A DNA stretch of 64,000 nucleotides from Phoronis australis. Its lineage: Eukaryota; Animalia; Phoronida. The position numbers were made by a program, and so were the translations under genes. Shown piece after piece: positions 19,001-22,000 of this stretch (positions are counted from its first letter, which is position 1; each line of letters begins with the position of its first letter). The notes beneath the pieces were generated by a model. That model worked only from the letters and a program-made list of their open reading frames with translations. It was not told the DNA's origin and made no database searches. The DNA lies in assembly GCA_002633005.1 (NCBI GenBank), contig NMRA01000450.1, forward strand, positions 307,303 to 371,302, in the 5' to 3' direction.

Positions 19001-22000
19001 AGACAGGGAAATATCTGTCGTGGAAGGAATCAATTCTTCAGAAATACCTCGAGAATTTGTATTTGAAAATTTTTGAGAATTATGGCCATAGGTCTCATCC
19101 ATCGTTTTGAAAATTACACAATTACAATCTGGAAGTATATGAATGATGTTCGTAGAGCTCATTAATCGTATTTAAAATTCCTTTTTGTGTGCCCGCATGT
19201 ATTTGTGTTGGTACATATTGCCATGGTCACTGTACAGCGTCCTGCGTCGGATGTCCAATGTCCACTGCTCTACCTCCTAAAGTGCTTGGAGGATTTTCAT
19301 GAAATTTGGCAGGTGTGTTCCTATGAAACACATGACAAAAGATGGCGATTTTTGGACAGATCCAGCCTCTGGTGCGCCTCCTAGTGACACACATGTCTCA
19401 GTATCTGCGCAGTTCCTTCGTGGATTTTCAGCAAATTTGGTAGATACTTTTCTATTATTAAGCTGATAACACAAATTTAATTGGGTTTTGGCTCCAGTTT
19501 TCACCTGCACTAGGTCGTCATGAATGTAGCAACACATGACCACTTTTGGATGGCACCTACTACTGTTGTGCGTCATTGTGGCAATCGTATTTTTATGTTT
19601 TGCCTATGTATTTTTGGAGTTCCTGGACAGATTTTCATGGCCTTCACGTTTTTGGAGACGTCAACTTATTCTGTGCCACCTAGTAGCCATTTTGAGACTA
19701 ATGAAGAATTCGAGAACCATACCATTTGTGTTGCACTTGTGAGCGAAATTCAATGCTTTTTTTAGCTCTCGTTATTGACAAAGTGTAAATTGCATAATGT
19801 TCCAGACAAGTTTCAGTCTCTTAAATCCACAAGACGGTCTTGAATTCAGAAAATTTTGCTCTACTGAGAACCGGTGCATTTGAATTTCCTCTCTGGGTGT
19901 ATGCCGTTTGCTAGGTCAGCCAAGTCAATCCTTTGAACATTATATTGGTTCTGAATGATGACTTCTGCTTAATAAACCAATAAGATGTCTTATCCGGTTC
20001 ACCAAGTGAAGCCAATGTGATTGTTTTGATTGGCTCATTTGGACGTAAGCAGTGTAGAATGTTTAAGTAGTTGCTCCCCTCTAACACACCGTAGACTGTT
20101 AAACGTTCATGATGTCCACTCATGGCGGTCTTGGAAAACTTCCGAGATATGAGCAAATCGTCGTCAGTGTTTGTCTGAAACTGTTAATGACTCCATTAGC
20201 TGTAGAGGGCTCCTGTTGAATTTATGTGTGCGTCACCTTTTACGCACTTTTGATAAGGTTTAAGGAAATAAAAAGAAACTAAAGAAATAAAAACCCTCAG
20301 TTTCTTTTGTTTTTGCTTGTTTTTCGTATTGTTGGTAAAAGTCCCAGTAGATTCTGCTCATTTTTCTAATATACATTGTACGGGCCCAACACTCTGAATT
20401 TGACCCCATACATTCTGGGAAGTGGGTCCATAGATGCTCTGTGTTTAGACGAGGGCCCACAGTAGCTCTGGAAATGGGTACAGGGTAACTCAATGTTTGG
20501 AATTGGGTGTAGGTTAGCCTAGTGTACCAAGTTCCAAGCAGACAACTGTACTCGGGATCTATTAGCAAAAATTATTCTCGAGTTTATGTTTTTGTGGGAA
20601 AATAACTCGCGGAAAAGGAAAATGATATTTTGGAAGATGGTGGAAAAGAACTGCGTATGAGTGGGCAGCATGGCCTTGTTGCACAACAGGCTTACACTAA
20701 CCGCATGTTTTCAGCATGTTTCAACTTGAGGCACACCACCTGTGTAACTACGACTTTCTCACGGTGCGTGACGGAGGACCAGGTGGTGATCTGGTCGGGC
20801 GGTTCTGTGGTAATACCATTCCCGCCAACATCACTGCGTCAAATGTGATCTGGATGCGGTTCCGGTCTAATGCTGGTATTACTGGTCGAGGATTCCAGGC
20901 TTCATACAATAGCTGTAAGTATATGTTGATTGCGGCTTCAGAGCAACATGGCTGACCAGTGGCTACTAAGTTGCTGGTGGAGTCTGTGATTTGTTGGAAG
21001 CTGGCATGGTAAGGCCCAAAATAGCGTAATTGTTTCTGGTCTGTGGTCCTCAAAAATTGATGCAACATCACTGACCTGTCCATGTTGCCAAATGAAGAAA
21101 TTATCTGGGATCATTTCTTTTTCTTTAAACTGTTGGGGGCATGCTTCAAAATGGGTCACGTGCAGACTAGAACAAACTGCGCTGTCTTAACCTTACTTCT
21201 TCTTTATAAGCCAAAGCGAAACTAGTGATCTGTTGCGGAATTCGTCTTTACTGACTGCATGTCCAAGTTTTGCAGGTGCCTTGACCCGGATCAGGTAGGT
21301 AACTATGTAGCTTACATTTACAGCACCTGTTCTATGGGCTCGTACACATGTTGTGTGCGGTCACTGATGAGTCTCCACGGAGATGTTATATTCAATAACT
21401 CTGATTGTGTTCTAGCCTCTTTGACATCCAGCCGCCAACAGATGGCAGCACGCGCTGTACAGAGGATTACGTCCTGATTGAGAACATGGTGACCAACGAG
21501 CGTGTGGCTCTGTTATGCGGCAGGAACCCACCTGCTCCTTTAACGTCGGCCAATCTGCTAAGGATTACCTTCCGTTCCGACAATAATGCGACTGGCCAGG
21601 GTTTCAGTTTCACTTACAGCTCTTGTGAGTAATGTCTGCTGGCGGTGGATGCTTTGACGCTGGCAGCTGCATGTGGCTCCTTGTTAACCTGTGCCATGGC
21701 ACTGGTAGTTGCATGTGTTTCCCGGTAATGGTTTTTAATTTCTTTATTTTTAGGTTGGTATCCTCACCTGTGTAGACCATTTCTTTCTTTAAGGGCCCTC
21801 AACGTGTTCACAGTACATTCACTCGCAGGACTCTCAACATATTTGCAGCACATTCACTCCAGGAGGGCTCTCAACACATTCGCACCATATTCACTTCCTT
21901 TCACACACTGAGCTTAAGACAGGGAAGAGGGATCACAGGCACAAAACGAGCACAGGATTCAGACTTGGGCCTCACAAGTGGGAGTTTGTACGCCATACCC

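What the first reader, a model, noticed from the sequence alone, without database searches (positions are those of the whole stretch)
20715..21624. Second candidate mutually exclusive pair: two divergent C-halves of CUB12
Seen: exon a (20715-20914) and exon b (21416-21624) both have the uncommon phase 2-1, both complete the CUB12 N-part (phase 1-2), and no N-part lies between them. Joining a to b gives TGA at 21475-21477. Exon b is strongly diverged yet keeps both Cys, FRSD and GFxxxY, with good splice sites. The acidic Ca2+ triad is altered in complementary ways: a has E..D..N (FRSN), b has Q..D..D (FRSD) plus a 3-aa loop insertion. Inference: isoforms with different binding surfaces. This pair is independent of the gap-associated duplication.
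Basis: partly seen in the sequence, partly recalled or inferred. Interest (0 to 1): 0.85.

Follow-up and report, generated by a model that had tools for sequence, protein, structure and literature searches.

The report
Cubilin swaps domain halves by splicing
RNA reads show that this invertebrate's uptake receptor cubilin is built with either one or the other of two exons for half of its 12th CUB domain, and a second such pair in domain 8 shifts in step across samples; the switch is likely run by the splicing factor RBFOX and likely yields receptor forms with different binding surfaces.

Summary
Confirmed. The window holds cubilin CUB7-27 of a lophotrochozoan. Stranded RNA reads join the CUB12 N-exon to a (9 reads) or b (28), and a (10) or b (13) to CUB13. 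No a-b, skip-both or go-back joint was listed. Use differs by run: upstream joints a:b are 8:3, 1:10 and 0:15. The CUB8 N-half pair shifts in the same order. GCATG, the RBFOX motif, ranks first of 1024 5-mers around the four alternative exons. It lies upstream of the two exons missing from run X3 and downstream of the two used there, matching RBFOX's position rule. Double inclusion or double skipping gives an early stop. Exon a is the conserved CUB12 half; b is derived, and no b relative was found. RBFOX action, NMD, tissue identity and ligand change are inferred. The mechanism is known (egl-15, FGFR2), but I found no report of it in cubilin.

The parts
18762..18894 (+). Shared CUB12 N-half exon (phase 1-2)
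   Evidence: Best positional profile is CUB12; its donor joins a or b in reads
20715..20914 (+). Alternative exon a: conserved-type CUB12 C-half (66 aa, E-D-N, keeps the conserved N-x-T sequon and Trp)
   Evidence: 94 bits to the CUB12 C-half profile, next 73; joints in 8/1/0 and out 8/2/0 in X1/X2/X3
21416..21624 (+). Alternative exon b: derived CUB12 C-half (69 aa, Q-D-D, longer loop, conserved sequon and Trp lost, new sequon two residues after the third acidic site)
   Evidence: Joints in 3/10/15 and out 4/5/4, plus an X4 contig; Pfam CUB; both listed read variants (21425, 21452) are synonymous
25233..25414 (+). CUB13 N-half exon, common downstream exon
20668..20718 (+). GCATG at 20668, at 20703 (between the branch-point-like ACTAAC at 20696 and the AG) and at 20714 (across the acceptor): predicted RBFOX silencer of exon a
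   Evidence: the 60 nt upstream of the exon are identical in the second haplotype copy
21668..21715 (+). Two TGCATG, 44 and 86 nt after b's donor (in a 42-nt-spaced repeat, third copy at 22060): predicted RBFOX enhancer of exon b
   Evidence: (D2)
1813..1997 (+). CUB8 N-half exon 8.1 (185 nt), the form that goes with b across runs; GCATG 132 nt downstream (2129)
   Evidence: Joint to 8C 1/4/10 in X1/X2/X3. Its upstream joint was not among the rows shown.
4631..4812 (+). CUB8 N-half exon 8.2 (182 nt), the form that goes with a across runs
   Evidence: Joints in 5/2/0 and out 5/6/0
4513..4634 (+). Five GCATG (4514, 4524, 4588, 4613, and 4630 across the acceptor): predicted RBFOX silencer of exon 8.2
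6493..6655 (+). Shared CUB8 C-half exon
20906..20920 (+). Donor region of a; 14 of 15 bases complementary to the donor region of b (21612-21626). Possible pairing, weak evidence.
   Evidence: energy is not an outlier
15769..18651 (+). About 94% identical second copy of 18650-21051 ending at the single-N gap (18652); likely the other allele, not a real tandem repeat
   Evidence: exon copies differ by one synonymous base each; no go-back joint and no exon-a depth in X3

Best explanation
Exons a and b are spliced mutually exclusively onto one shared CUB12 N-half, and their use shifts across samples in step with a second pair in CUB8, likely because RBFOX silences a and 8.2 from upstream GCATG sites and activates b and 8.1 from downstream ones, which likely gives cell types cubilins with different binding faces at CUB8 and CUB12. 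SHOWN: the four CUB12 joints, the absence of listed a-b and skip joints, the shift between runs, the same order of shift at CUB8, and the motif layout. INFERRED: (1) RBFOX-low cells use the conserved pair 8.2 + a, and RBFOX-high cells use 8.1 + b, perhaps with a tissue-specific partner factor. (2) Stray double-inclusion or double-skip transcripts are removed by NMD, since each exon is 3n+2 long. (3) b arose by tandem duplication of the CUB12 C-exon and then diverged. (4) The swap rebuilds the calcium/ligand-facing loops and moves a glycan, changing which cargo or partner (such as megalin) binds. Odds by step: mutual exclusion about 0.97; coupled regulation about 0.8; RBFOX as driver about 0.65; changed binding about 0.6.
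For: (about 18-19% of each run read), counts for X1/X2/X3: N>a 8/1/0; N>b 3/10/15; a>CUB13 8/2/0; b>CUB13 4/5/4. All 37 listed reads leaving the N-exon go to a or b, all 28 entering b come from the N-exon, and all 10 leaving a go to CUB13. X4 contigs hold N>b and a>CUB13. Shift: Fisher p = 1e-4 (X1 vs X3, upstream joints only) and 0.0075 (X1 vs X2). CUB8: 8.1>8C 1/4/10 and 8.2>8C 5/6/0, p = 0.0014 for X1 vs X3. Depth shares of a and of 8.2 are 0.65/0.19/0 and 0.50/0.33/0. Motif: 10 GCATG in 8 alternative 150-nt flanks against 15 in 74 constitutive flanks, rank 1 of 1024 5-mers. Permutation over any 4 of 41 exons gives p = 0.0003-0.008 across five window sizes; the directional p is 0.0003-0.02; the reverse-complement motif is not enriched at 75-200 nt. 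Position rule: PMC11874969 passages; RBFOX represses egl-15 exon 5B from upstream (PMC3585155 passages). NMD supports 14 of 19 non-3n clusters in C. elegans (PMC4165533 passages). Human CUB8 and CUB12 both carry consensus calcium sites, and CUB8 binds intrinsic factor (PMC6283879 passages). CUB7,8 binds albumin and CUB12-17 binds megalin (PMC9485058 passages). b lacks the sequon Asn (139 of 148 orthologs) and the Trp (144 of 148) that a keeps.
Against: Only three quantitative samples were available, of unknown tissue and probably different animals (their variants differ), so genotype is not excluded. Coupling is between samples, not on single molecules, and is loose in X2 (8.2 has 6 of 10 joints, a has 3 of 18). 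Joints under 3 reads are not listed, so rare a-b products could be hidden. Which isoform set counts as 'RBFOX-on' was a free choice, so the directional p should be doubled. As an unplanned 5-mer search, the binomial p of 6e-5 times 1024 is 0.07. Three GCATG in the a-b intron (21004, 21139, 21257) do not fit the rule cleanly. The constitutive N-exon also has GCATG across its acceptor. The two sites after b lie in one short repeat. 10 of 74 constitutive flanks were anchored on approximate boundaries. The reverse-complement motif reached p = 0.036 at 300 nt. PMC11874969 notes that GCAUG is common and that upstream repression is less consistent. No b relative was found, and b's origin is unresolved (CUB21 44.8, CUB12 43.8, CUB7 42.9 bits; tree open). 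No binding data exist.
Confidence: 0.62

Rival explanations
1. The splicing switch is real, but b is an off-switch: it yields a folded spacer domain with a glycan-shielded, non-binding face rather than a new specificity.
For: b has a long branch (0.86, against 0.43 for a). It has lost residues conserved in 139-145 of 148 orthologs, and it has a sequon two residues after the third acidic site. Glycosylation at a CUB8 Asn lowers albumin binding (PMC9485058 passages). That this position neighbours the calcium site is recalled from CUB structures.
Against: b keeps 15 of 23 strongly conserved columns, against 17 for a. It has the majority Q-D-D state, and the same sequon position occurs in 2 of 148 single-form orthologs. 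b is the major form in two of three runs.
Confidence: 0.2
2. The differences between runs reflect genotype (alleles of splice elements, or deletion of exons a and 8.2 in some animals), not cell-type regulation.
For: The runs carry different variants, the species is highly polymorphic (about 94% identity between haplotype copies), and no matched DNA or tissue labels were seen.
Against: Two pairs about 16 kb apart shift together, the motif layout predicts the direction, and both forms occur in X1, X2 and X4.
Confidence: 0.1
3. Exclusion is enforced mainly by RNA pairing: the donor of a pairs with the 3' end of b, and the N-exon donor pairs with 21752-21770.
For: The a/b donor-donor helix (15 nt, one mismatch) is the longest such helix among 37 donors; the next is 13. 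The N-donor inverted repeat is listed.
Against: Best-duplex energies rank 33 of 41 (a) and 9 of 41 (N). The match can arise from a near-palindromic Tyr-Ser/GTAAG end shared by duplicated exons (inference). No orthologous DNA was available to test covariation. It would not explain the shift between samples or the CUB8 coupling.
Confidence: 0.07
4. b is a pseudo-exon or an assembly artefact, or it belongs to a separate half-domain joined to a through a 19-nt micro-exon at 21277-21295 that would keep the frame.
For: The region lies next to a gap-linked duplication. An AG..GT 19-mer is visible in the sequence. No b homologs were found.
Against: 41 spliced reads join b to the N-exon or CUB13. No micro-exon joint was listed, and depth in that bin is 0.15-0.74, consistent with the first 9 nt of b. 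Both listed variants in b are synonymous.
Confidence: 0.01

Closest known systems
C. elegans egl-15 (FGFR) exons 5B/5A, and vertebrate FGFR2 IIIb/IIIc
   Same: A mutually exclusive pair in a receptor ectodomain. RBFOX represses the upstream exon from an upstream UGCAUG (egl-15), RBFOX2 works with ESRP on FGFR2 (PMC3585155 passages), and NMD is linked to IIIb/IIIc (title in the reference list of PMC4165533). That IIIb/IIIc supply alternative C-halves of one Ig domain and change ligand choice is recalled.
   Different: Here the domain is CUB, in an endocytic receptor. Two pairs (an N-half pair and a C-half pair) move together. RBFOX action and ligand change are not shown.
C. elegans unc-32 exons 4a-c and 7a/b
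   Same: Two exclusive clusters in one gene are selected by tissue, with RBFOX and UGCAUG involved (PMC3585155 passages).
   Different: unc-32 is a V-ATPase subunit and needs UNC-75; no co-factor was identified here.
Human short intestinal cubilin (cryptic exon in intron 28, truncated after CUB8)
   Same: Tissue-biased cubilin isoforms made by splicing (PMC12926548, whole text).
   Different: That isoform is a truncation; here full-length receptors exchange half-domains.
Mollusc cubilin isoforms: oyster and Babylonia RefSeq X1/X2; abalone, nine Iso-Seq isoforms
   Same: Lophotrochozoan cubilins with several isoforms. The oyster and Babylonia pairs differ by a swap rather than a skip.
   Different: That swap lies in the N-terminal stalk, not CUB8 or CUB12. 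The abalone paper (PMC5368703 passages) gives no exon structure in the text I saw; its Figure 5 and supplements were not seen.
Dscam docking-site/selector clusters
   Same: Duplicated half-domain exons in an invertebrate receptor (the half-domain layout is recalled).
   Different: Only pairs here. No docking/selector set stood out, and the choice looks sample-specific.

Membership tests
Cubilin | 27 tandem CUB domains in conserved order | tested here: met
   For CUB7-27, the part in the window: 21 domains follow in order. Of the 27 constitutive or conserved-type segments scored (8.1 and b set aside), 14 score best on their expected position, 11 more have it among the top four and 2 have it among the top five; a better-matched C-half profile set placed 9 of 10 best. 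The nearest named proteins are cubilins.
Cubilin | N-terminal amnionless-binding region, coiled coil and 8 EGF domains | not testable with these tools
   Outside the window; no genome is held.
Homologous mutually exclusive exons | Each exon is spliced to both flanking exons | tested here: met
   All four joints are present.
Homologous mutually exclusive exons | Double inclusion and double skipping are absent from mRNA | tested here: met
   None listed, against 37 upstream and 23 downstream listed joint reads; joints under 3 reads are not shown.
Homologous mutually exclusive exons | Homologous, same phase, origin by tandem duplication | tested here: inconclusive
   Same phase, both CUB C-halves, 29% identical; sister status is not resolved.
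RBFOX-regulated exons | (U)GCAUG clusters upstream of repressed and downstream of activated exons | tested here: met
   with the caveats listed in the Against line
RBFOX-regulated exons | RBFOX binds the sites and its loss changes splicing | not testable with these tools
   Needs CLIP, knockdown or a minigene.
NMD-backed exclusive pair | Non-3n exons; double or no inclusion makes an early stop | tested here: met
   (also true of the CUB8 pair)
NMD-backed exclusive pair | Aberrant forms rise when NMD is blocked | not testable with these tools
   No such data were available.
Steric-hindrance exclusive pair | Branch point of the second exon too close to the donor of the first | tested here: not met
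   The intron is 501 nt, b's AG-free zone is 33 nt, and branch-like sites lie at -15 and -52.
U2/U12 incompatibility | One flanking intron of U12 type | tested here: not met
   The donors read GTGAGA, GTAAGT and GTGAGT with AG acceptors.
Competing RNA structure (Dscam type) | One docking site complementary to a selector at each exon, conserved with covariation | tested here: inconclusive
   No docker/selector set was seen. One long donor-donor helix has ordinary energy, and covariation could not be tested.
Calcium-binding CUB domain | Acidic E-D-D triad | tested here: not met
   a is E-D-N and b is Q-D-D; E-D-D is found in 23 of 148 orthologs. Triad positions are recalled from CUB structures; actual calcium binding is untested.

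The most novel reading that the evidence does not exclude
One RBFOX switch re-tools cubilin at two calcium-site domains at once, giving two cell-type-specific scavenger receptors from one gene (8.2+12a and 8.1+12b, for example excretory organ versus hindgut) with different cargo or megalin coupling. It would be an FGFR-IIIb/IIIc-like ligand code on a CUB array and a natural domain-swap experiment for assigning ligands to CUB8 and CUB12.
Probability: 0.35. Interest if true: 0.75.

Novelty: new variant of a known kind. Interest (0 to 1): 0.57.

Why it matters
Cubilin is a deeply conserved multi-ligand uptake receptor and a marker of the bilaterian hindgut (PMC12768270 passage). The spliced form described for humans is a truncation. 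Here an animal exchanges half-domains at CUB8 and CUB12, two positions that carry consensus calcium sites in human cubilin and lie in its ligand- and megalin-binding regions. If the forms bind differently, this shows how one scavenger receptor can be tuned to different epithelia, and it offers matched natural variants for mapping ligands to single CUB domains. The motif layout makes the regulator directly testable with a small minigene. Limits: one unnamed species, no conservation shown, and a known class of splicing mechanism.

Tried and rejected
Conservation of b: no relative was found among proteins of 122-2000 aa (5 candidates, none passed) or 37-121 aa. Among the best 150 of 562 representatives there were only generic CUB matches, best 51 bits at 41%. 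None appeared among the 120 listed of 230 full-length cubilins or in metagenome contigs (598 pattern matches, none confirmed). These searches hide isoforms inside clusters and held no close relative (nearest 53%), so they do not show absence. Seventeen pairs from the fetched clusters were compared; none showed a clean half-domain swap at CUB8 or CUB12. The two pairs with long unresolved differences (P0154/P0156 and P0005/P0160) were not read as isoform swaps. The run search listed no indexed RNA holder; the laid runs came by species label. No own genome is held. Rfam gave 0 hits. Earlier findings: none. Rejected: a hidden N-part or third exon; the 19-nt micro-exon; a real tandem CUB12 duplication; steric and U12 exclusion; the triad as a special complementary design. 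The full IQ-TREE run did not finish, so FastTree was used, with P0247 left out as not clearly one-to-one. No structure or complex was predicted, because a half-domain model would mostly reflect likeness to solved CUB folds. Literature searches that found no report of exclusive CUB half-exons in cubilin; the library lacks most subscription papers.

Full report
1. Gene and organism. The + strand carries a run of CUB-domain exons from 667 to about 60485. Profiles built per domain position from ten cubilins with 27 detected domains (two partly out of register) place them as CUB7 to CUB27, and the exon at 18762-18894 scores best as the N-half of CUB12. The nearest named protein is Owenia fusiformis cubilin at 53% identity. 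A FastTree tree of 18 rows puts the window in a lophotrochozoan clade (support 97, inner position open). No cephalochordate, brachiopod or phoronid was among the rows, so this placement is approximate. No whole genome is held.

2. The observation. Exon a (20715-20914, 200 nt) and exon b (21416-21624, 209 nt) both start in phase 2 and end in phase 1, and either completes CUB12 in frame. Including both gives TGA at 21475-21477, and skipping both gives TAA at 25255-25257. A six-frame profile scan found no unassigned CUB fragment above 5.5 bits, so no separate N-part for b exists in the window. b passes Pfam CUB, and its best PDB match is cubilin CUB5-8, 3KQ4.

3. RNA evidence. The run search listed no indexed RNA holder but offered four runs with the same species label. 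I laid all four on 18653-26200 (18-19% of each raw run was read, and exon reads lie on one strand, consistent with the + strand gene). Joint reads in X1/X2/X3 were: N>a 8/1/0, N>b 3/10/15, a>CUB13 8/2/0, b>CUB13 4/5/4. Contigs of X4, from another study, hold N>b and a>CUB13. No a>b, N>CUB13, micro-exon or go-back joint was listed; joints under 3 reads are not shown. Exon a has zero depth in X3. The shift is significant: p = 1e-4 for X1 vs X3 and 0.0075 for X1 vs X2 on upstream joints; X2 vs X3 is not significant. Both listed read variants in b are synonymous. The pair is therefore real, exclusive within these counts, and sample-dependent.

4. The gap duplication. Bases 15769-18651 repeat 18650-21051 at about 94% identity, up to a single N. 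The exon copies differ by one synonymous base each. A transcribed tandem CUB12 would give a go-back joint from a to the N-exon and constant exon-a depth; neither is seen. It is most likely the second allele. b lies beyond the copied part.

5. Coupling with CUB8. The second lay (600-11250) shows that the two CUB8 N-half exons are also alternatives: 8.1>8C 1/4/10, 8.2>8C 5/6/0, and CUB7>8.2 5/2/0. The CUB7>8.1 joint was not among the rows shown (47 rows hidden). Both exons are 3n+2 long, and double or no inclusion gives stops. Depth shares are 0.65/0.19/0 for a and 0.50/0.33/0 for 8.2. So X3 uses only 8.1 and b, while X1 leans to a and uses 8.2 for at least half of its transcripts. This is a between-sample pattern from three runs; the two sites are about 1.5 kb apart in mRNA and no read links them.

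6. Mechanism of choice. Steric exclusion and U12 incompatibility fail. RNA pairing is weak: the donor of a and the end of b are complementary at 14 of 15 bases, the longest such helix among 37 donors, but best-duplex energies are ordinary (rank 33 of 41). Scanning five known splicing-factor motifs showed GCATG clustering, which I then tested. There are 10 copies in the 8 flanks (150 nt) of the four alternative exons, against 15 in 74 constitutive flanks, rank 1 of 1024 5-mers. Over windows of 75-300 nt the rank is 4, 2, 1, 1, 1, the permutation p over any 4 of 41 exons is 0.0003-0.008, and the directional p is 0.0003-0.02. The sites lie upstream of 8.2 (four) and a (two, one between the branch-like ACTAAC and the AG), and downstream of b (two) and 8.1 (one). 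RBFOX typically activates from downstream and represses from upstream (PMC11874969, passages). It represses egl-15 exon 5B from upstream (PMC3585155, passages). The layout thus predicts 8.1 + b when RBFOX is active, which is the set seen alone in X3. Against this: three sites in the a-b intron fit poorly; the constitutive N-exon also has the motif across its acceptor; the on/off labelling was a free choice; 10 of 74 control flanks had approximate anchors; and no binding was tested. NMD as a backstop follows from the frames and from C. elegans, where 14 of 19 non-3n clusters rely on it (PMC4165533, passages); it is not tested here.

7. Protein consequence. Among 148 distinct CUB12 orthologs (from 206 long proteins, 191 passing the score and length filter; heavily teleost), a is the conserved type. 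It is closer than b to 132 of 148, and scores 94 bits on a CUB12 C-half profile, next 73. b is 29% identical to a and keeps 15 of 23 strongly conserved columns (a keeps 17). b has lost the sequon Asn (139 of 148), the Trp (144 of 148) and the Arg (145 of 148), has a 4-residue-longer first loop, and carries a sequon two residues after the third acidic site (2 of 148 orthologs have one there). Its origin is not resolved by sequence: CUB21 44.8, CUB12 43.8, CUB7 42.9 bits, with an open tree. Duplication of the CUB12 exon is inferred from position and phase. Human CUB8 and CUB12 both have consensus calcium sites and CUB8 binds intrinsic factor (PMC6283879, passages). CUB7,8 binds albumin, glycosylation of a CUB8 Asn lowers that binding, and CUB12-17 binds megalin (PMC9485058, passages). 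A changed binding face is therefore plausible but unshown; an off-switch form is the main rival.

8. Conservation and prior reports. No b relative was found, but no close relative was within reach. Annotated isoform pairs of oysters and Babylonia differ by a swap in the N-terminal stalk, and those of fishes and a frog by skips or truncations. Searches found no report of exclusive CUB half-exons in cubilin. The hits concerned the human truncated isoform (PMC12926548, whole text), nine abalone isoforms (PMC5368703, passages; its figure and supplements were not seen and may bear on novelty), and honey bee polyadenylation (PMC11677483, passages). The hindgut role of cubilin is from PMC12768270 (one passage). 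The FGFR IIIb/IIIc and Dscam half-domain layouts and the triad positions are recalled, not taken from a call.

9. Verdict. This is a real, read-supported mutually exclusive pair, part of a two-site switch in cubilin with a testable RBFOX-type code. It works like egl-15 and FGFR2 exon switching; RBFOX regulation itself is untested. Novelty: new variant of a known kind. Interest 0.57.

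Noticed in passing
window 1813-1997 and 4631-4812: The CUB8 N-half pair is also mutually exclusive in reads and shifts with the CUB12 pair; 8.1 has an N-x-T sequon that 8.2 lacks.
   Followed up: yes
P0289/P0170, P0290/P0292, P0291/P0293, P0303/P0183: Oyster and Babylonia RefSeq cubilin isoforms swap a short N-terminal stalk segment: an arginine-rich version (furin-site-like, recalled) against a plain heptad version. This looks like a conserved cleavable/uncleavable switch in molluscs.
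   Followed up: partly
window 55059-57447 and 57579-59972, N at 57448: A second gap-linked duplicate (95% identical) repeats the CUB27 N-half exon; likely the same allelic assembly artefact.
   Followed up: no
window 18892-18910 and 21752-21770: An inverted repeat would pair the shared N-exon donor with intron sequence 128 nt after b; energy rank 9 of 41.
   Followed up: partly
window 21277-21295: An AG..GT 19-mer with a strong-looking donor would put a+b in frame; no reads support it.
   Followed up: yes
window 35434-35580, 37714-37830: Two GCATG lie downstream of each of the CUB19 and CUB20 N-half exons; this region was not covered by a read lay.
   Followed up: no
window 2380-4160, 6751-7239, 11283-11761, 17518-18019, 24330-24560: Intronic repeats or mobile-element pieces that attract many reads from other loci.
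   Followed up: no
window 25235 onward: CUB13 begins without the first Cys, as do the sea urchin, snail and frog orthologs printed.
   Followed up: no
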